Program-made: the position numbers and the translations under genes
IMG/VR virus record: IMGVR_UViG_2923286960_000002
Source: a virus
Taxonomy: Duplodnaviria; Heunggongvirae; Uroviricota; Caudoviricetes
DNA: 12,475 nt
Direction: 5' to 3' (one strand)
Part shown: piece after piece, positions 1,314-6,831 of the stretch
Numbering within the stretch: the first letter of the stretch is position 1
Layout: each line of letters begins with the position of its first letter
Notes under the pieces: model-generated
What the model saw: only the letters and a program-made list of their open reading frames with translations
Database searches by the model: none
What the model was told of the DNA's origin: nothing

Positions 1314-1595
1314 GGTTAAAAATCAGCCATCGTAATAACCATTTGATTTTTATAGGTGTACTGTTTTTTTATACACTGGCGAATCACTCTTAAAAATATG
1401 TAAAAAAGGCGTAAAAGTAAAATTTTATGCCTTTGCATCATAATGAATTAAAAGAGTTTTTATTCTCATTCCCCCTGCTTCTGTAAAACGACCGCCGCCA
1501 GTGTTTGCCATTCCACAAACACCCTGACACAATCCGACACAACCCAACCCAATAATCCACCCAATGACTCTTTAAGAAACAACAAAGGGGGAATT

Positions 1596-1784
1596 GTGTT
1601 AAGCACAGATCGCTTTATACGTGAAAAAGAATGTCAGCAACTTACAGGCCTGAGCCGCTCATGTCGGTACCGCCTGGAAAAAGCCGGACAATTCCCATCA
1701 CGGCGTAAGCTGGGCGGTCGTTCCGTTGGCTGGTCTTTATCCGAAGTTCTGGCATGGAAGGACAGCTGCGAGGCAGTTCACTAA
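1596..1784 (+). CDS. alpA: AlpA-family (excisionase-like) HTH regulator
   Basis: 62 aa, GTG start preceded by AAAGGGGG SD; motif LTGLSRSCRYRLEKAGQFP...KLGGRSVGW typical of the prophage AlpA/Xis-like family; sits just downstream of int as in CP4-57/PICI layouts. Confidence 0.85.
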   Translation: MLSTDRFIREKECQQLTGLSRSCRYRLEKAGQFPSRRKLGGRSVGWSLSEVLAWKDSCEAVH

Positions 1785-1836
1785 TCAGGCTGGCGGCACA
1801 CAGCCGCCACCCATCCACTAATACAGAGATCTAACC

Positions 1837-3129
1837 ATGAATACTGGATATTCTCCCGAACAAGGGCGGGGCTTCGTTCGTCCTGAAAAACAGAATCTGC
1901 AAAATTTTGCCGAAAGTATTCCGGTTATTTCCGGCCTTACTGGCGGGAGTGAAACCAATATTGTTAACGCCAGAGCGTTGCAGATGTTTGATGATAAAAA
2001 GGGAGTAAATTTAACTTACACCCCTGACGGCAATCAGAATATGAGCATTATCTCTGAGTCAGGTTTCTACAAACTAATAAAAACAAAAAGCGCCCCGTTG
2101 CCGGAGCGCCTTTGTGAACAATTAACCTACTGCGCAAAAAATGAATCTGAGCAGTGGGATTATATCAACCATGTGGAGAAGCGCCACAATTGCCGAATAA
2201 CGGGCAAAACAAAGGCCACCCGCTACGGTGGCCCCTCGACACAAGCTACACGTTATCCCCAACGCATGAGCATTGCCAACAATGCCACATTTGCGGCTGG
2301 TGGGCAATGCAATCAGTCTGGTTCAGTTCGTTGCCATACCTGCAATGAGCGCTTTTCCCTGTACTCTTTAAGGAATTGCTCAAGGGCAAAAGCACATGGC
2401 GCGAATCTTTCTGATTCATGCTCTATCTTTCTGCGCCGTCTTTTCCGTGCCGGTGATAATGTTTTGGTCAATTCTTTATCGGTCATTGTGTTGTCCTGCA
2501 TAGCAATGCGCCGTAATACCTTACACCACGGCGCTGATGGTGATTACTCTGGTTCTTTGGCCTTGCGGCGCTGGCGATATTCAACTTCTCGTTTTAATGC
2601 CGCAGTAACAAATTGCCCCGTACTTTCGCCAGGCATTTTTACCGCCTCAACATTGTTCATAACTTCATGCGGAACCCTTGCCGCAACGGTTTGTGATTTT
2701 GCGTTTACTGCTTTTGTCGCCATGTGGTGTACCCCTCATAAAAAACAAATGCAGTATGCAGGAAAAAAAATAAGTGTTCAACACTTGACGTGTTTAACAC
2801 CTGGGTTTAAATTGGTGTTCAACACCTTGTTGGCGCAAGGTGCAGAAACGACGAAACCCGGCAGTGCGCTAACACTAACCGGGCTTCTAACCACCAACGA
2901 TAGCGAAAGTATCGAGGTAGCTATGCGAAATCATACCACACACCCGCAAGGGCGGGACTCGCACAACCTGAATAAATACATCTGGCGTTTTATCGCCCTG
3001 AGCACGGCACAACCGCGCGTGATTACCATTGAGGCCACCAGCGAACAGGAAGCACGCCAGCAATCTCCGGCTGGCTGCGTGATGGTATTCGCTGCCCGTA
3101 TTCGTCAGGAGGTGTGCCATGTGCAATAA
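1837..3129 (+). CDS. Bro-N-like domain ORF (antirepressor-like N-terminus); 3' two-thirds of the frame doubtful, possibly degraded
   Basis: N-terminal ~110 aa resemble the Bro-N domain (NLQNF..., DDKKGV..TPDGNQNMSIISESGFYKLIKTKSAP). From about aa 120 the frame is Cys/Ser/Thr/Arg-rich and poor in Asp/Glu/Lys, and it is antisense to a well-supported RHH gene. No clear SD before the ATG. Confidence 0.4.
   Translation: MNTGYSPEQGRGFVRPEKQNLQNFAESIPVISGLTGGSETNIVNARALQMFDDKKGVNLTYTPDGNQNMSIISESGFYKLIKTKSAPLPERLCEQLTYCAKNESEQWDYINHVEKRHNCRITGKTKATRYGGPSTQATRYPQRMSIANNATFAAGGQCNQSGSVRCHTCNERFSLYSLRNCSRAKAHGANLSDSCSIFLRRLFRAGDNVLVNSLSVIVLSCIAMRRNTLHHGADGDYSGSLALRRWRYSTSRFNAAVTNCPVLSPGIFTASTLFITSCGTLAATVCDFAFTAFVAMWCTPHKKQMQYAGKKISVQHLTCLTPGFKLVFNTLLAQGAETTKPGSALTLTGLLTTNDSESIEVAMRNHTTHPQGRDSHNLNKYIWRFIALSTAQPRVITIEATSEQEARQQSPAGCVMVFAARIRQEVCHVQ
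2313..2501 (-). CDS. Hypothetical small basic protein, second gene of the leftward RHH operon
   Basis: 62 aa, highly charged (KRRRRK), 42 nt downstream of the RHH gene on the same strand; no recognisable fold by eye. Confidence 0.3.
   Translation of the reverse strand: MQDNTMTDKELTKTLSPARKRRRRKIEHESERFAPCAFALEQFLKEYREKRSLQVWQRTEPD
2544..2723 (-). CDS. Ribbon-helix-helix (Arc/CopG/MetJ-like) DNA-binding protein, putative island repressor
   Basis: 59 aa ORF below the track's length cutoff: MATKAVNAKSQTVAARVPHEVMNNVEAVKMPGESTGQFVTAALKREVEYRQRRKAKEPE. Beta-strand/helix/G-x-S-T helix pattern of RHH proteins; GAGGGG SD ~9 nt upstream of ATG; three palindromic operators immediately upstream. Confidence 0.55.
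   Translation of the reverse strand: MATKAVNAKSQTVAARVPHEVMNNVEAVKMPGESTGQFVTAALKREVEYRQRRKAKEPE
2753..2826. promoter_or_regulatory. Divergent promoter/operator switch with three GTGTT-N-AACAC palindromes
   Basis: O1 2774-2784 gtgttcaacac, O2 2790-2800 gtgtttaacac, O3 2815-2825 gtgttcaacac. Rightward promoter TTGACG (2785-2790), 17 nt spacer, TAAATT (2808-2813). Leftward promoter TTGAAC (complement of 2776-2781), 17 nt, CATACT (complement of 2753-2758). O1 overlaps the leftward -35, O2 lies in the rightward spacer, O3 just after the rightward -10. Confidence 0.55.
2923..3129 (+). CDS. Hypothetical 68 aa protein; alternative first gene of the rightward operon (same frame as the 3' end of the 1837 ORF)
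   Basis: ATG at 2923 preceded by GAGGT; lies ~100 nt downstream of the rightward promoter; its stop overlaps the next start (ATGTGCAATAA). Confidence 0.3.
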   Translation: MRNHTTHPQGRDSHNLNKYIWRFIALSTAQPRVITIEATSEQEARQQSPAGCVMVFAARIRQEVCHVQ

Positions 3130-3358
3130 CATCCGTCCGGACGCAGCCGCCGAAGCCATCATAACGCTAATGCACGCGCTGATTGATATTTCTGTTATCG
3201 CAGACATGGCGCATAAGCACGCCACCAGTGAAACAGAATATGCCGGGGCTTTCGTTCCTCATTCGCTGGCGGTTATGCAACTTAGTGCGGATATGGCGCT
3301 GAATGAGGCCAAAGCCATCCTGATTGCTGATTGTGAAAATGGGGGGGGTTATGCGTGA
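3119..3358 (+). CDS. Hypothetical protein (79 aa)
   Basis: ORF translationally coupled to its neighbours; acidic, helical-looking composition; no recognisable family by eye. Confidence 0.5.
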   Translation: MCNNIRPDAAAEAIITLMHALIDISVIADMAHKHATSETEYAGAFVPHSLAVMQLSADMALNEAKAILIADCENGGGYA

Positions 3359-3584
3359 TGATCGTTTTAATTCCCTGAAACAGGAATTTTCCGGCGTTCC
3401 TGATGATGCGGCTGATGCGCTTTCGTCAATGCCAGAACTTATTAGAGCGGCTTTTTTCTTACTTTCCACGAGAGAATATAAATCAACGGGGCTTGATGTA
3501 CTGAATATCGCCGCCGATTATGCGGAATATGTGGCAGAGGCGCGTTACAGAAGAAAATTTCCTGAGGATGTAAGCCATGCGTGA
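3351..3584 (+). CDS. Hypothetical protein (77 aa; start chosen at the ATG behind a G-rich SD)
   Basis: Track ORF begins at 3324, but GGGGGGG at 3341-3347 precedes the ATG at 3351; start overlaps the upstream stop (ATGcgTGA). Confidence 0.5.
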   Translation: MRDDRFNSLKQEFSGVPDDAADALSSMPELIRAAFFLLSTREYKSTGLDVLNIAADYAEYVAEARYRRKFPEDVSHA

Positions 3585-3810
3585 TATTTACCACGAAACA
3601 ATAGACCGCGCATTTCTTGCACTTTCTCACAGTGAAAACATGCTGGAAATATTGCGCATATGGCTTGAAACACTTGGCGACAATGAACGCGACAAACAAA
3701 AATCAAGAATTGCCACGGCATTAATAACGCTTCTTGAGCCTGTAATAATGGAACTGCAAGAAATAGATCTATTGCACGACAGATATAAAGAACAGCACAC
3801 CGGAGAATAA
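3577..3810 (+). CDS. Hypothetical protein (77 aa)
   Basis: Start overlaps the stop of the upstream gene (ATGcgTGA at 3577-3584); protein-like composition. Confidence 0.5.
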   Translation: MRDIYHETIDRAFLALSHSENMLEILRIWLETLGDNERDKQKSRIATALITLLEPVIMELQEIDLLHDRYKEQHTGE

Positions 3811-3815
3811 AAATA

Positions 3816-4115
3816 ATGAAACTTAAATATTCTGGCTTAACTGCCAGTGGCAACACTCACCCTAAATTTACGCGCGGTGATATTTACCGCGACCAGTACG
3901 GCGGCACGGTAATGATTAAGGGCGTGGAAGAACGGCGTGTAACCTACCGCCGTGAAGGTTACGAATATGATTGCGTGATGCCTGTTTATCAGTTCCGGCG
4001 TGATTTTTCTCTGGTACAGACCGCGCCGCATAACGTGCCCACCAGCAACGCCAGGGCACGGGCAAACATCCAGAAGCTGAAAACCATGATTAACGGATTC
4101 AGGGGTAAAAAATGA
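3816..4115 (+). CDS. Hypothetical protein (99 aa), possibly a conserved enterobacterial prophage small protein
   Basis: Motif GDIYRDQYGGTVMIKGVEERRVTYRREGYEYDC; stop overlaps the start of the replication gene (ATGA at 4112-4115). Confidence 0.5.
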   Translation: MKLKYSGLTASGNTHPKFTRGDIYRDQYGGTVMIKGVEERRVTYRREGYEYDCVMPVYQFRRDFSLVQTAPHNVPTSNARARANIQKLKTMINGFRGKK

Positions 4116-5866
4116 AACTGGCACCGAACGTAAAACAGCAGTCACGCGGCATAAAACACAAAGGAACAGAAGTCATTATTTTTGCGGGTAGTGATGCCTG
4201 GGCACACGCGAAACAATGGCAGGAACATGATGCGCGTATGGCCGGAGATAATGAGCCTCCTGTGTGGCTTGGGGAGCAGCAGTTATCAGAACTGGATAAG
4301 CTGCAAATTGTGCCGGAAGGCAGAAAATCCGTGCGCATATTCAGGGCCGGATATCTTGCGCCAGTAATGATAAAGGCGATTGGCCAGAAGCTGGCGGCGG
4401 CAGGCGTACAGGATGCAAATTTTTACCCTGATGGTATGCACGGTCAGAAGGTGGAGAACTGGCGCGAATATCTGGCCCGTGAGCGCCAGAATCTTTCTGA
4501 TGGTCTGGTCATTGAGCTTCCGGTAAAGCAAAAGGCGCAACTTTCGCAGATGGCGGACAGTGAGCGCGCGCAGCTGCTTGCCGATCGCTTTGATGGCGTT
4601 TGCGTACATCCTGAAAGTGAAATCGTTCACGTATGGCGCGGCGGGGTATGGTGTCCGGTCAGCACAATGGAGCTTAGCCGCGAAATGGTGGCGATCTATT
4701 CAGAGCACAGGGCCACTTTCAGCAAGCGCGTAATCAATAACGCCGTGGAAGCGTTAAAAGTTATTGCCGAACCAATGGGCGAGCCGTCCGGCGATTTGCT
4801 GCCGTTCGCCAATGGTGCGCTTGACCTGAAAACGGGGGAATTTTCCCCGCACACGCCGGAGAACTGGATCACCACGCACAACGGCATTGAGTACACGCCA
4901 CCAGCACCCGGGGAGAACATCCGCGATAACGCGCCAAACTTTCATAAATGGCTTGAGCACGCAGCCGGAAAAGACCCGCGCAAGATGATGCGTATATGTG
5001 CCGCGCTGTACATGATTATGGCGAACCGGTACGACTGGCAGATGTTTATTGAGGCCACCGGAGACGGCGGGAGCGGTAAAAGTACATTCACACACATAGC
5101 CAGCCTTCTGGCAGGGAAACAGAACACGGTAAGCGCTGAAATGACATCGCTTGATGATGCTGGTGGACGTGCGCAGGTTGTCGGGAGTCGTCTTATCGTC
5201 CTGGCTGACCAGCCGAAATATACAGGCGAAGGAACGGGCATCAAGAAAATCACAGGCGGCGACCCCGTGGAAGTTAACCCGAAATATGAAAAGCGTTTCA
5301 CGGCGGTAATCAGGGCGGTGGTGCTGGCGACCAACAACAACCCGATGATATTCACCGAACGGGCCGGAGGTGTGGCACGTCGTCGCGTGATTTTCCGTTT
5401 CGACAATATCGTCAGTGAGGCCGACAAAGACAGGGAGCTACCGGAAAAGATTGCGGCTGAAATCCCTGTGATTATCCGCCGATTACTGGCGAACTTTTCC
5501 GCCCCTGAAAAGGCACGGGCTTTACTCATTGAACAGCGTGACGGTGATGAAGCACTGGCGATAAAGCAGCAAACGGATCCGGTTATTGAGTTTTGCCAGT
5601 TCCTGAATTTTCTGGAGGAAGCGCGCGGCCTGATGATGGGGGGCGGTGGCGATTCAGTGAAGTACACGACCAGGAACAGCCTTTACCGCGTCTATCTGGC
5701 GTTTATGGCATACGCAGGCAGGAGCAAACCGCTAAACGTAAATGACTTTGGCAAGGCTATGAAGCCAGCCGCGAAAGTTTACGGACATGAATATATTACG
5801 CGGAAAGTTAAGGGAGTAACGCAGACTAACGCAATAACAACAGACGATTGCGACGCGTTTTTATAA
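4112..5866 (+). CDS. Replication initiator/helicase, P4 alpha C-terminal-like (D5_N + SF3 helicase); PICI Pri-Rep-like
   Basis: 584 aa; Walker A GDGGSGKST near aa 315 followed by a hydrophobic strand ending LIVLAD; overall resemblance to the phage/plasmid primase P4-family C-terminal domain. No TOPRIM or AEP primase motif recognised by eye in the N-terminal 300 aa. Confidence 0.88.
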   Translation: MKLAPNVKQQSRGIKHKGTEVIIFAGSDAWAHAKQWQEHDARMAGDNEPPVWLGEQQLSELDKLQIVPEGRKSVRIFRAGYLAPVMIKAIGQKLAAAGVQDANFYPDGMHGQKVENWREYLARERQNLSDGLVIELPVKQKAQLSQMADSERAQLLADRFDGVCVHPESEIVHVWRGGVWCPVSTMELSREMVAIYSEHRATFSKRVINNAVEALKVIAEPMGEPSGDLLPFANGALDLKTGEFSPHTPENWITTHNGIEYTPPAPGENIRDNAPNFHKWLEHAAGKDPRKMMRICAALYMIMANRYDWQMFIEATGDGGSGKSTFTHIASLLAGKQNTVSAEMTSLDDAGGRAQVVGSRLIVLADQPKYTGEGTGIKKITGGDPVEVNPKYEKRFTAVIRAVVLATNNNPMIFTERAGGVARRRVIFRFDNIVSEADKDRELPEKIAAEIPVIIRRLLANFSAPEKARALLIEQRDGDEALAIKQQTDPVIEFCQFLNFLEEARGLMMGGGGDSVKYTTRNSLYRVYLAFMAYAGRSKPLNVNDFGKAMKPAAKVYGHEYITRKVKGVTQTNAITTDDCDAFL

Positions 5867-6154: not shown

Positions 6155-6412
6155 ATGCGCACATCAGGAAAACTTAATAATCAGAAGAAGCAGCATAACC
6201 GCGCCATTGACCTTACAGAGCACTGGCTGAGAGTGGCGATAAAAATCATCGACCGCAACACGGGGGAAGGATACGCGAAAGCACATCCCGACCTGATAAG
6301 CGCATTCATGACCACGGCGGCGGCAAACTTTGCCACGCTGACAGAACGGGAGATTGCCGAAGCGGAACAGGTAACAACCATCAACGTTAAAACCGGAGAG
6401 GTGGAATCATGA
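6155..6412 (+). CDS. Hypothetical protein (85 aa)
   Basis: Strong SD GAGGGGG upstream; stop overlaps the SSB-like start (ATGA at 6409-6412). Confidence 0.5.
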   Translation: MRTSGKLNNQKKQHNRAIDLTEHWLRVAIKIIDRNTGEGYAKAHPDLISAFMTTAAANFATLTEREIAEAEQVTTINVKTGEVES

Positions 6413-6831
6413 CAGCACAGATAGCAGCTTACGGGCGGCTGGTGGACGACCCGCAGGTAAAACAGACCAGCAAGGGCACACCAATGACGCTGGCACGTAT
6501 GGCGGTCCCCCTTCCGTGCAGCCAGGCAGATGACGGAACGGCGACGATGTGGTTATCCGTCCTGGCATTTGGCAGACAGGCCGAAGCACTGGAAAGGCAC
6601 CGCAAGGGTGAACTCCTGAGCGTGGCGGGTAACATGCAGATCAGCCAGTGGACTGGGCAGAACTGAGAAACGCGGCAGGGCTGGCAGGTTATCGCAGACA
6701 GTGTAATCAGTGCGCGAACGGCGCGACTGGGCGGCAAAAAAGGTCAACAGGGCCAGGCTACTGACGCGCTGAACAGGGCAAAACAACAGGCGGGGAATGA
6801 TGATCCGTACGGGGATAACATACCGTTTTAA
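6409..6831 (+). pseudogene. ssb: SSB-like OB-fold protein interrupted by a single in-frame TGA (6664-6666); nonsense mutation, readthrough or sequencing error
   Basis: N-terminal 85 aa align to the SSB OB fold (YGRLVDDPQVKQTSKG...WLSVLAFGRQAEALERHRKGELLSVAGNMQISQWTGQN). The same frame continues after the TGA for 54 codons and ends in the SSB acidic tip ...DDPYGDNIPF. The TGA sits where SSB has a conserved Gly codon. Confidence 0.7.

What the first reader, a model, noticed from the sequence alone, without database searches (positions are those of the whole stretch)
1837..3129. Bro-N-like ORF with a compositionally abnormal 3' two-thirds overlapping antisense genes
Only the first ~110 aa look like a real Bro-N domain. 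The rest of the 430-aa frame is Cys/Ser/Thr/Arg-rich and runs antisense across the RHH operon and the operator region, yet stays open for ~900 bp. Either this is a genuine overlapping-gene arrangement, or the Bro-N gene is a remnant and the open frame is maintained by the opposite-strand genes. A plausible 68-aa ORF (2923..3129) shares its last codons.
Basis: seen in the sequence. Interest (0 to 1): 0.55.

Follow-up and report, generated by a model that had tools for sequence, protein, structure and literature searches.

The report
P4 eta-like read-through ORF in satellite
The 430-codon frame is neither a working Bro-N gene nor a chance ORF: related phage-satellite islands keep it open, apparently so that ribosomes can follow helper-induced transcripts across a backwards-facing repressor cassette, as the eta/kil nested genes do in phage P4.

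Summary
The ORF 1837-3129 is real and runs antisense over YlcI/YnfO (2544-2723) and a 62-codon ORF. Its last 68 codons are an Icd-like gene of the same NCBIfam family as P4 Kil.

The "Bro-N" head is a mosaic remnant. Codons 1-46 are the start of an AntA gene and codons 47-81 are an internal Bro-N piece. The rest matches sequence that lies downstream of those genes' stop codons in relatives.

The frame is nevertheless under selection.
- I sampled loci by the Icd domain alone. In 84 of 93 sequence clusters the in-frame stop-free run upstream of Icd is at least 130 codons (median 272, against 1-43 in the other five frames).
- The YlcI-Icd promoter spacer has 9 lengths (103-931 nt), all equal to 1 mod 3.
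- Its 18 sequence families carry 0 in-frame stops, against 96 and 109 in the other two forward frames.
- YlcI codon choice avoids antisense stops.
- Spacer diversity is flat across codon positions, so selection acts on openness, not on the protein sequence.

Best reading: this is a P4 eta-like translated leader, coupled to alpA or a Bro gene, that lets upstream transcripts pass an immunity module. That module comprises a small repressor, an operator-flanked promoter and a newly seen covarying antisense sRNA over the Icd start. The mechanism is inferred and was not tested. I class it as a new variant of a known kind.

The parts
1505..1533 (+). Promoter-like site upstream of alpA; candidate helper- or AlpA-activated promoter, the counterpart of P4 PLL
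   Evidence: Consensus scan only: TTGCCA-17-CACAAT with TG. AlpA autoactivation and helper induction of PalpA were shown for EcCICFT073 in PMC6092414.
1596..1784 (+). alpA (Vis-like regulator/excisionase family)
   Evidence: Pfam Phage_AlpA, E 3e-18. PGAP annotates it as a helix-turn-helix regulator.
1837..3129 (+). Long eta-like ORF (430 codons) whose last 68 codons are the nested Icd-like/kil gene
   Evidence: the ORF. Conserved openness. Long forms of 300-550 aa are widely deposited as 'Icd-like protein'.
1837..1982 (+). Remnant: first ~46-48 codons of an antA/AntB antirepressor gene
   Evidence: 94% identical to L004 1501-1983; the intact 266-aa AntA gene of L004 starts at the equivalent ATG.
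1975..2079 (+). Remnant: internal fragment of a Bro-N gene, fused in frame
   Evidence: 91% identical to L002 2501-2608, which lies inside the intact 192-aa Bro-N gene at 2315-2893. Pfam Bro-N is below its cut-off in the window.
2086..2113 (-). Intrinsic terminator on the minus strand; read on the + strand it gives the recurring 'KTKSAP' peptide
   Evidence: Terminator scan: 12-bp stem followed by a T-run. Weak Rfam sau-6072-type hairpin.
2208..2239 (-). Second minus-strand terminator-like hairpin, downstream of orf62
   Evidence: GGCCACCGtagcGGGTGGCC followed by TTTGTT; weak isrD-type match.
2313..2501 (-). orf62, a probable small gene downstream of YlcI, antisense to the long ORF with wobble positions coinciding
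   Evidence: phrog_21027, E 1.6e-15. Intact in 42 of 44 clusters and always in phase 0. Only weakly constrained.
2544..2723 (-). YlcI/YnfO family protein (59 aa), candidate repressor, embedded antisense in the long ORF
   Evidence: NF041551, 59.7 bits. Coding signature lies on the minus frame. Phase 0 in 68 of 68 long-frame clusters.
2774..2827 (.). Three copies of the palindrome GTGTT(C/T)AACAC, putative operators
   Evidence: the repeat finder family D1 at 2774, 2790 and 2815. A different palindrome accompanies a different YlcI allele in L002/L062.
2785..2813 (+). Internal sigma-70-like promoter for the Icd-like gene, the counterpart of P4 PLE
   Evidence: TTGACG-17-TAAATT, consensus scan only.
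2844..2922 (-). Conserved cis-antisense small RNA covering the 5' UTR, Shine-Dalgarno (ribosome-binding) sequence and AUG of the Icd-like gene. Its extended -10 box TGGTATGAT is the reverse complement of 2930-2938.
   Evidence: Weak symR-like Rfam match, 33 bits. In 75 distinct sequences, 98.6% of cells are paired, 13 of 18 pairs show compensatory changes, and 0 of 500 shuffles reach this. The T-run and the G-U pairs are on the minus strand only.
2923..3129 (+). Icd-like/Kil-family gene nested in the 3' end of the long ORF
   Evidence: NF033153, 69.8 bits. P4 Kil hits the same model at 76 bits.
3119..5866 (+). Downstream chain of translationally coupled ORFs ending in the primase
   Evidence: ORFs 3119-3358, 3351-3584, 3577-3810, 3816-4115 and 4112-5866 overlap by 11, 8 and 8 nt, then a gap of 5, then an overlap of 4.

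Best explanation
The window is a P4/PICI-type phage satellite. Its order is int, alpA, a Bro zone, primase, then capsid genes. The 430-codon frame is the counterpart of phage P4's eta gene, a long ORF that begins next to the alpA/vis gene and has the small toxic kil/Icd-like gene as its terminal part.

Proposed mechanism, with shown and inferred steps marked.

(1) Resting state (inferred). The only transcripts entering the Icd-like gene would start at the internal promoter 2785-2813. That promoter sits among three palindromic operators next to a divergently encoded small YlcI/YnfO protein, the inferred repressor. A conserved cis-antisense sRNA (2922->2844) covers the ribosome-binding site and start codon of Icd, so it would block Icd translation. 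By analogy with c4/icd in P1 and CI/kil in P4, that block would cause polarity on the downstream replication genes.

(2) Helper induction. That transcription starts upstream of alpA is shown only for the related island EcCICFT073. That ribosomes load at the ATG 52 nt after the alpA stop is inferred. In relatives, the start of the long ORF overlaps the stop of an intact AntA or Bro gene by 4-17 nt (shown).

(3) Read-through (inferred). Ribosomes translate straight through the terminators, orf62, YlcI, the operators, the sRNA gene and Icd. From there they pass into the tightly coupled chain of ORFs that ends in the primase. Continuous translation would keep the roughly 1.1 kb of otherwise antisense, untranslated RNA from being terminated. 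It would also make these transcripts insensitive to the antisense-RNA block.

(4) Selection (shown). Selection acts on the frame being open, not on the peptide it encodes. The AntA/Bro-N head in this window is a leftover of deletions that happened to keep, or were selected to keep, the frame.
For: Homology and layout:
- The nested gene belongs to the Kil/Icd family: 69.8 bits for the window, 76 bits for P4 Kil.
- P4 eta is an open frame of 217 codons that overlaps the vis stop and contains the immunity RNAs.
- PMC10111431, summarising Forti 1999, says that eta is coupled to the alpA homologue, has an internal constitutive promoter, has Kil as its truncated form, and that 'Eta translation prevents termination'.

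Selection for openness, using loci sampled by the Icd domain only:
- About 135 of 158 loci have at least 199 open codons.
- 84 of 93 clusters have at least 130 codons upstream of the Icd start. The median is 272, against 1-43 in the five control frames.
- This holds across genera: 8 of 12 species-level loci, in Escherichia, Enterobacter, Rahnella, Rosenbergiella, Superficieibacter, Intestinirhabdus and Acerihabitans.
- The YlcI and Icd frames are in the same phase in 68 of 68 long-frame clusters.
- The spacer takes 9 lengths from 103 to 931 nt, all equal to 1 mod 3. The four broken clusters that carry YlcI have 197 or 198 nt.
- 18 spacer families share less than 80% identity. They carry 0 in-frame stops against 96 and 109 in the other two + frames. 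The product of shuffle probabilities is 1e-32.
- In YlcI genes the codon before His or Gln ends in T in 2 of 315 cases, against a 20% background. A T there would create an antisense TGA.

Selection is not on the peptide:
- Spacer pi is flat across codon positions, 0.32/0.30/0.34.
- The N-terminal domain is swapped, deleted or mosaic among relatives.

Coupling:
- The first ATG overlaps the upstream gene's stop by 8, 4 or 17 nt, or lies 8-57 nt after the alpA stop.
- The downstream ORFs overlap by 4-11 nt.

Positive control: 69 of 72 unique P4-like loci keep eta open for 189-225 codons. That broken fraction, about 4%, is of the same order as the roughly 10% seen here.

Module equivalence: loci without a YlcI hit carry a different small Arc-like gene antisense in the same phase.

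Upstream promoter logic: AlpA activates its own promoter and downstream genes, and helper phages induce alpA (PMC6092414).
Against: - There is no direct evidence here of translation, of Rho-dependent termination, or of any promoter's activity. The promoters rest on consensus matches only, and the scan found fewer sites than in shuffled sequence.
- The C/G ratio of the + strand is only mildly above 1, so there is no clear Rho-loading signature.
- The defining P4 immunity RNAs (Rfam C4 and isrK) are absent from the window even at E<=10.
- The ATG at 1837 has only a weak Shine-Dalgarno sequence and lies 52 nt from the alpA stop, so coupling in this particular window is less obvious than in relatives.
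- About 10% of lineages, including one common one (L062, 10 loci), carry a frameshifted long frame.
- In five clusters there is a 135-nt gap between the Bro-N stop and the opening of the frame.
- The loci share mosaic segments, so they are not fully independent.
- In the orf62 segment, discordant substitutions slightly favour the + frame. Some peptide-level constraint on part of the long ORF therefore cannot be excluded.
Confidence: 0.62

Rival explanations
1. Spurious ORF. The frame is a decayed Bro-N pseudogene followed by a frame that happens to be open because it lies antisense to real genes. This is the view implied by PGAP's pseudogene call at 2041-2548.
For: - The Bro-N match is below its cut-off and partial, and the head is a deletion mosaic.
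- PGAP marks 2041-2548 as an incomplete Bro-N pseudogene.
- Composition is abnormal.
- Given the YlcI protein, random synonymous codons leave the antisense frame open 23% of the time; for orf62 the figure is 88%.
Against: - Openness extends through non-coding spacers in 18 diverged families with 0 in-frame stops against about 100 in each other + frame.
- Spacer lengths are all equal to 1 mod 3.
- The phase is identical in 68 of 68 clusters.
- The same feature appears in other genera with unrelated antisense genes.
- The PGAP pseudogene call probably comes from alignment to a reference protein that is itself a long-ORF variant with an intact Bro-N head, such as P0013, 447 aa (my inference).
Confidence: 0.03
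2. A genuine overlapping protein-coding gene. The whole 430-aa product, or at least its middle part, is a functional protein whose sequence matters. It would be encoded antisense to YlcI and orf62 in the wobble-sharing phase.
For: - The frame is conserved and is widely annotated as a 300-550 aa protein.
- P4 Eta has a real N-terminal Phage_ASH domain.
- Some relatives carry an intact Bro-N or ASH domain fused in frame.
- In the orf62 segment, discordant substitutions favour the + frame, 172 against 95.
Against: - Spacer diversity is flat across codon positions.
- In the YlcI overlap both the position pattern and the discordant changes favour YlcI, 158 against 71.
- The N-terminal domain is interchangeable, absent (L003 type) or fragmentary (this window).
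- The middle matches no family and is Cys/Ser/Thr-rich.
Confidence: 0.1
3. Translation through the region is selected, but for a reason other than preventing Rho termination. Options:
- to strip or outcompete the antisense sRNA and the convergent YlcI mRNA, avoiding duplex formation and RNase III cleavage or transcriptional interference;
- to deliver ribosomes to the Icd codons when Icd's own start is blocked, producing an N-terminally extended Kil as the active form during induction.
For: - The sRNA covers the Icd ribosome-binding site and start, so the short form should be silenced.
- The long ORF reads through that site in frame.
- There is no strong Rho-loading composition.
- All the openness evidence fits this reading equally well.
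Against: The two characterised relatives of this gene family use translation-dependent escape from Rho termination. For P4 kil/eta this is reported in PMC10111431. For P1 c4-icd-ant it rests on my own recollection of Biere et al. 1992 and Riedel et al. 1993. A 360-residue unconstrained N-terminal extension on a 68-aa division inhibitor is an odd way to make an active protein.
Confidence: 0.2

Closest known systems
Phage P4 eta/kil nested genes (Forti et al. 1999, J Bacteriol 181:5225; as summarised in PMC10111431)
   Same: - The small Kil/Icd-family gene is the terminal part of a long ORF in the same frame.
- The ORF starts at the end of the alpA/vis gene.
- An internal promoter and the immunity determinants lie inside it.
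- The frame is kept open in relatives (69 of 72 P4-like loci).
- The downstream genes lead to the primase.
   Different: - There is no CI/seqA RNA; Rfam C4 and isrK are absent.
- Instead, the ORF runs antisense through a protein-coding cassette (YlcI/YnfO plus orf62, with their terminators) in a fixed wobble-sharing phase, and over a true cis-antisense sRNA gene.
- It is twice as long: 430 against about 199 codons.
- There is no ASH domain; the head is an AntA/Bro-N remnant.
- The anti-termination role is inferred here and was not shown.
Phage P1/P7 immI operon c4-icd-ant (Citron & Schuster 1990; Riedel et al. 1993; the Rho-polarity mechanism is from my own knowledge of Biere et al. 1992)
   Same: - A small Icd-family ORF serves as the translated leader.
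- An antisense-type RNA blocks its start.
- It is associated with anti-repressor (Ant/Bro-network) genes.
- Icd is a cell-division inhibitor that targets FtsZ (PMC11897509).
   Different: - In P1 the RNA acts in trans from the same strand and the ant gene lies downstream of icd.
- P1 has no long upstream ORF that bypasses the control.
SymE/SymR of E. coli (PMC1891008; Rfam RF01809)
   Same: A cis-antisense RNA of about 77-79 nt overlaps the 5' end of a gene whose product is toxic. Its promoter sits inside the start of that gene. There is a full-length but weak match to the covariance model (33 bits, E 6e-4).
   Different: - The score is far below Rfam's gathering score of 61.
- The target protein is unrelated to SymE.
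- The setting is a satellite, not an SOS gene.
Gifsy-1 isrK-orf45-anrP (PMC4825925)
   Same: Translation of a small leader ORF, gated by an RNA element related to P4 seqA, decides whether downstream prophage genes are expressed.
   Different: There is no isrK match in the window, no nested long ORF and no antisense protein gene.

Membership tests
P4-type eta/kil nested-gene arrangement | The terminal nested gene belongs to the Kil/Icd-like family | tested here: met
   NF033153: window 69.8 bits, P4 Kil 76.1 bits, cut-off 25.
P4-type eta/kil nested-gene arrangement | A long ORF in the same frame, beginning at or next to the end of the alpA/vis gene and conserved as open | tested here: met
   The window ATG lies 52 nt after the alpA stop. 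In relatives the frame opens between 155 nt before and 37 nt after the alpA stop, or overlaps an intervening Bro gene. 84 of 93 clusters are open.
P4-type eta/kil nested-gene arrangement | An internal promoter inside the long ORF that drives the short gene | tested here: inconclusive
   TTGACG-17-TAAATT at 2785-2813, a consensus match only.
P4-type eta/kil nested-gene arrangement | CI immunity RNA and seqA target inside the ORF (Rfam C4 and isrK) | tested here: not met
   Both are found in P4. Neither is found in window 1500-3500 at E<=10.
P4-type eta/kil nested-gene arrangement | Translation of the long ORF prevents Rho-dependent termination of upstream-initiated transcripts | not testable with these tools
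   Needs nonsense mutants and Rho inhibition. Composition gives no clear Rho-loading signal.
P4-type eta/kil nested-gene arrangement | Phage_ASH domain in the N-terminal part of Eta | tested here: not met
   P4 Eta matches PF10554 at E 3.7e-23. The window ORF has no ASH hit.
Bro-N domain proteins (Pfam PF02498) | A full domain match above the gathering score | tested here: not met
   14.2-16.9 bits against 25.6, covering profile positions 36-85 of 96 only. It is a fragment of an L002-type gene.
YlcI/YnfO family (NCBIfam NF041551) | Model match above the cut-off for the 59-aa antisense gene | tested here: met
   59.7 bits against 30; phrog_949 at E 8.6e-22.
Ribbon-helix-helix (Arc/MetJ/CopG) repressors | Beta-alpha-alpha fold and sequence-profile membership for the 59-aa protein | tested here: inconclusive
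   No Pfam RHH hit. The AlphaFold2 monomer has pLDDT 75, with an extended N-terminus and two helices. No Foldseek PDB match. Only the alternative allele gives weak Arc hits, E 0.006.
SymR antitoxin RNA (Rfam RF01809) | Covariance-model score at or above the gathering score | tested here: not met
   33.3 bits against 61. The RNA's own structure is nevertheless strongly supported.
Gram-negative PICI four-zone organisation (PMC10111431) | The order Integration (int, alpA), Bro zone, Replication (primase, SSB), Late (capsid genes), all co-oriented | tested here: met
   PGAP annotation of the identical E. coli B-2207 locus, between roxA and phoQ.

The most novel reading that the evidence does not exclude
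A widespread class of enterobacterial satellites carries an ORF of 200-600 codons that is selected only for being translatable. It would act as a 'ribosome bridge' laid antisense, in a fixed wobble-sharing phase, over a complete immunity module: a repressor gene, its terminators, its operators and an undescribed antisense sRNA that gates a Kil/Icd toxin. Helper-induced transcripts would then override both the protein-based and the RNA-based immunity. This would supply the missing repressor/immunity logic of Gram-negative PICIs. It would also be a clean natural case of a coding frame under selection for openness alone, one that constrains the synonymous codons of the gene on the other strand.
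Probability: 0.45. Interest if true: 0.72.

Novelty: new variant of a known kind. Interest (0 to 1): 0.6.

Why it matters
- It explains a frequent annotation problem. The same stretch is called an 'Icd-like protein' of 300-550 aa, a Bro-N pseudogene, or left blank, depending on the genome.
- It extends the P4 eta/kil principle, translation of a nested long ORF as an immunity bypass, to PICI-type islands. Some part of the 1.9-kb query region around the ORF matches in 1841 of 5426 complete E. coli genomes. P4 and PICIs were said to share only Int, AlpA and Pri (PMC6092414).
- It offers a tractable natural example of selection on frame openness that measurably shapes codon choice in an antisense gene.
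- The predictions can be tested directly with one nonsense mutation and a Rho inhibitor.

Tried and rejected
- **Rfam, whole window at gathering thresholds:** nothing. In E-value mode on 1500-3500 there was no C4 or isrK, only a weak symR hit and chance-level hits.
- **tblastn of the Icd-like protein against the phage collection:** one weak hit, and P4 itself was missed. The link to P4 Kil came from NCBIfam instead.
- **Forti et al. 1999:** not held under its DOI or PMC id. I relied on the summary in PMC10111431 and on my memory of the abstract.
- **A 4-sequence Icd/Kil alignment that included P4 Kil:** too diverse for the search for related loci. I used 3 sequences.
- **Equal-length 'alignment' of orf62 alleles and Icd ends:** gave nonsense diversity of about 0.5 from misregistration. 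I replaced it with a MAFFT alignment.
- **PDB sequence search with YlcI and Icd:** nothing meaningful.
- **AlphaFold2 monomer of YlcI plus Foldseek against PDB:** no support for or against an RHH fold.
- **Literature searches for YlcI/YnfO/DUF3950 and for a described antisense RNA at Icd-like genes:** nothing relevant.
- **C/G ratio as a signature of Rho loading sites:** uninformative.
- **The EcCIMP1 paper (PMC11773190):** contained nothing on this region.
- **Explanation considered and rejected:** the frame might be an N-terminal extension of YlcI on the minus strand. All three minus frames have stops in 2724-2922.
Full report
**Where the window comes from.** The window is 100% identical to the chromosome of E. 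coli B-2207. It lies between roxA and phoQ and is a satellite-type island: integrase, alpA, a variable 'Bro zone', DUF4222, primase, an SSB pseudogene, major capsid and head-decoration genes. This is the four-zone organisation described for Gram-negative PICIs (PMC10111431).

**The observation.**
- ORF 1837-3129 (+) is 430 codons, and its frame has no stop from 1819 to 3127.
- On the minus strand lie a 59-aa YlcI/YnfO family gene at 2544-2723 (NF041551, 59.7 bits) and a 62-codon ORF at 2313-2501 (phrog_21027).
- The last 68 codons (2923-3129) are an Icd-like protein (NF033153, 69.8 bits).
- Residues 83-362 are Cys/Ser/Thr-rich and poor in acidic residues.
Pfam gives 14-17 bits against a cut-off of 25.6, and only the C-terminal half of the profile is matched.

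**The head is a mosaic remnant.**
- 1500-1982 matches L004 at 94%. There the same ATG starts an intact 266-aa AntA/AntB gene.
- 1975-2079 matches, at 91%, the inside of an intact 192-aa Bro-N gene in L002.
- From 2079 on, the window matches sequence that lies after the stop codons of those genes in L004 and L002.
- The joints are in frame, so the AntA ATG now opens a frame that runs to the Icd stop.
- PGAP calls 2041-2548 an incomplete Bro-N pseudogene. I infer that the call comes from alignment to a reference such as P0013, which is itself a long-ORF variant with an intact Bro-N head.

**The frame is conserved.**
- In the first four loci examined (the window, L002, L003, L004; down to about 72% identity) a + frame ending at or running through the Icd gene is open for more than 1 kb.
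- The protein database holds about 2000 relatives. Long forms of 300-550 aa are deposited as 'Icd-like protein' and share 61-90% identity over full length.
- That sample is biased towards ORFs that gene callers called. I therefore sampled loci by the Icd domain alone: 13 species-level genomes, 80 viral contigs and 80 metagenome contigs.
- Of 158 loci with complete upstream sequence, about 135 have at least 199 open codons.
- After clustering at 97% identity there are 93 clusters. In 84 of them the in-frame stop-free run upstream of the Icd start is at least 130 codons. The median is 272, against medians of 1-43 in the other five frames.
- Among different genera, 8 of 12 loci have 284-418 open codons even though the peptide is unrecognisably different.

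**The opposite-strand genes do not explain it.**
- In all 68 long-frame clusters that carry a YlcI homologue, the YlcI frame and the Icd frame have the same phase, with third codon positions coinciding.
- The spacer between the two start codons takes nine lengths (103, 187, 190, 193, 196, 199, 205, 331, 931 nt). All equal 1 mod 3.
- The four broken clusters that have YlcI have spacers of 197 or 198 nt. One of them (L019) is an A8-to-A7 slip. Another (L062) is a 7-nt difference at a recombination joint.
- The spacers fall into 18 families with less than 80% identity. Together they contain 0 stops in the Icd frame, against 96 and 109 in the other two + frames. For each family a shuffled sequence is open with probability 0.002-0.18, and the product is 1e-32. 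This product overstates independence but is decisive.
- Inside YlcI genes, the codon that precedes a His or Gln codon ends in T in 2 of 315 cases, against a 20% background. A T there would make TGA on the + strand.

**What is selected is openness, not sequence.**
- Nucleotide diversity by + codon position is flat in the spacer (0.32/0.30/0.34).
- In the YlcI overlap it is 0.15/0.27/0.42. That is the order expected for positions 2, 1 and 3 of the minus-strand gene.
- In Icd the order is that of a + strand gene.
- Substitutions that are synonymous on one strand only favour YlcI in its segment (158 against 71) and Icd in its segment (258 against 68).
- Codon-usage scores agree.
- The orf62 segment is ambiguous and nearly unconstrained.

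**Link to P4.**
- P4 Kil hits the same NCBIfam model, at 76 bits. P4 Eta is a Phage_ASH domain plus the Kil domain.
- In P4 the frame is open for 217 codons, overlaps the vis (alpA-family) stop, and contains the CI RNA and seqA (Rfam C4 and isrK).
- PMC10111431 summarises Forti et al. 1999. [quoted passage not shown]
- As a control for my method, 69 of 72 unique P4-like loci keep eta open (189-225 codons). The frame typically opens 58 nt before the vis stop.
- In the window family the long ORF's first ATG overlaps the stop of an intact AntA or Bro gene by 8, 4 or 17 nt, or lies 8-57 nt after the alpA stop.
- Downstream of Icd, the ORFs up to the primase overlap by 4-11 nt. The long ORF thus fills the only large + strand stretch between alpA and the primase that has no conventional gene.
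- For the related island EcCICFT073, AlpA activates its own promoter and downstream genes, and helper phages induce alpA (PMC6092414).

**What differs from P4.**
- No C4 or isrK RNA is present.
- Instead the ORF is laid over a divergent cassette: YlcI/YnfO and orf62 with two minus-strand terminators (2113-2086 and 2239-2208), three GTGTT(C/T)AACAC palindromes around a TTGACG-17-TAAATT promoter, and a conserved cis-antisense small RNA.
- In loci without a YlcI hit, an Arc-like small gene takes YlcI's place in the same phase.

**The antisense small RNA.**
- It first appeared as a weak symR-like hit (33 bits).
- It has an extended -10 box (TGGTATGAT) made of Icd codons 3-5, two hairpins, and a T-run on the minus strand.
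- In 75 distinct sequences, 98.6% of cells pair, 13 of 18 pairs show compensatory changes, and no shuffle or slid register comes close.
- About 10% of paired cells are G-U. These would be mismatches on the + strand, so the fold belongs to the minus-strand RNA.
- It covers the Shine-Dalgarno sequence and AUG of Icd.

**Mechanism.** Steps shown are the anatomy, the family memberships, the selection for an open frame, the coupling geometry and the RNA structure. Steps inferred are listed below.
- The internal promoter, YlcI and the sRNA form an immunity module that keeps Icd and the replication genes silent.
- Transcripts from the alpA promoter are translated continuously through the long ORF.
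- That translation protects them from termination and from the antisense block, as in P4. My own recollection is that the P1 c4-icd-ant operon works in a similar way.

Nothing here measures translation, Rho dependence or promoter activity. About 10% of lineages carry a broken frame.

**Verdict.** The finding is real and more interesting than a pseudogene, but its principle has a precedent from 1999. I rate it a new variant of a known kind. The novelty lies in the antisense protein-coding cassette inside the bridge ORF, the fixed phase and codon-level footprint, and the previously undescribed antisense sRNA.

Noticed in passing
window 2844-2922 (-), promoter box 2930-2938: A conserved cis-antisense small RNA of about 79 nt lies over the 5' UTR, Shine-Dalgarno sequence and AUG of the Icd-like gene. 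It has two hairpins and a T-run. 13 of 18 pairs show compensatory changes in 75 distinct sequences. It is only a weak symR-like Rfam match (33 bits against 61) and PGAP does not annotate it.
   Followed up: yes
window 2763-2770; L019 intergenic: An A8 homopolymer lies inside the long ORF in the promoter spacer. L019 has A7, which frameshifts and breaks the long frame while its three cluster mates keep it. This could be a sequencing error or a slippage-prone switch.
   Followed up: partly
window 2313-2501 (-): orf62 is intact in 42 of 44 clusters and has a PHROG family. Yet it evolves almost without constraint (both-synonymous 209 against both-nonsynonymous 440). One-strand-only synonymous changes favour the + frame (172 against 95), the reverse of YlcI.
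   Followed up: partly
window 2774-2827; L002 and L062 intergenic: The operator-like palindromes change together with the YlcI allele. The window has GTGTT(C/T)AACAC three times; loci with the 101-aa YlcI allele have GTGTGTTTCATG...CATGAAACACAC. This is what exchangeable immunity specificities would look like.
   Followed up: partly
window 6409-6831 (+): PGAP annotates the single-stranded DNA-binding protein gene of the island as a pseudogene with an internal stop. The ORF list shows the break after 6409-6666.
   Followed up: no
window 1792-1808 (+): A perfect hairpin, GGCGGC-acaca-GCCGCC, lies 8 nt after the alpA stop and before the long ORF's ATG. There is no T-run. Its function is unknown.
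   Followed up: no
L008 1153-1218, L061 1236-1302, L077 784-851, L158 609-676, L174 1418-1484: The Rfam int-alpA RNA (RF02996) is present between int and alpA in several related islands. It is not detected in the window, whose int-alpA spacer (1231-1595) is AT-rich.
   Followed up: no
L009 3735-3923 (Escherichia albertii): A P4-style pair of isrK (seqA) and C4 (CI) RNAs lies directly upstream of an Icd-like gene, but the in-frame open run is only 87 codons. Either the eta frame is broken here or the arrangement differs.
   Followed up: no
window 2086-2113 and 2208-2239; same motif in L002, L004, L012, L014-L016: Minus-strand terminators read on the + strand give a recurring 'KTKA/KTKSAP' peptide in the long ORF of many loci. 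This looks like protein conservation but is RNA-hairpin conservation.
   Followed up: partly
P0005, P0008, P0053 (540-550 aa); records with 'Icd-like protein (x2)': Some islands carry a tandem arrangement: a window-type Icd N-terminus, then a Phage_ASH domain and a second L002-type Icd domain, all in one open frame.
   Followed up: no
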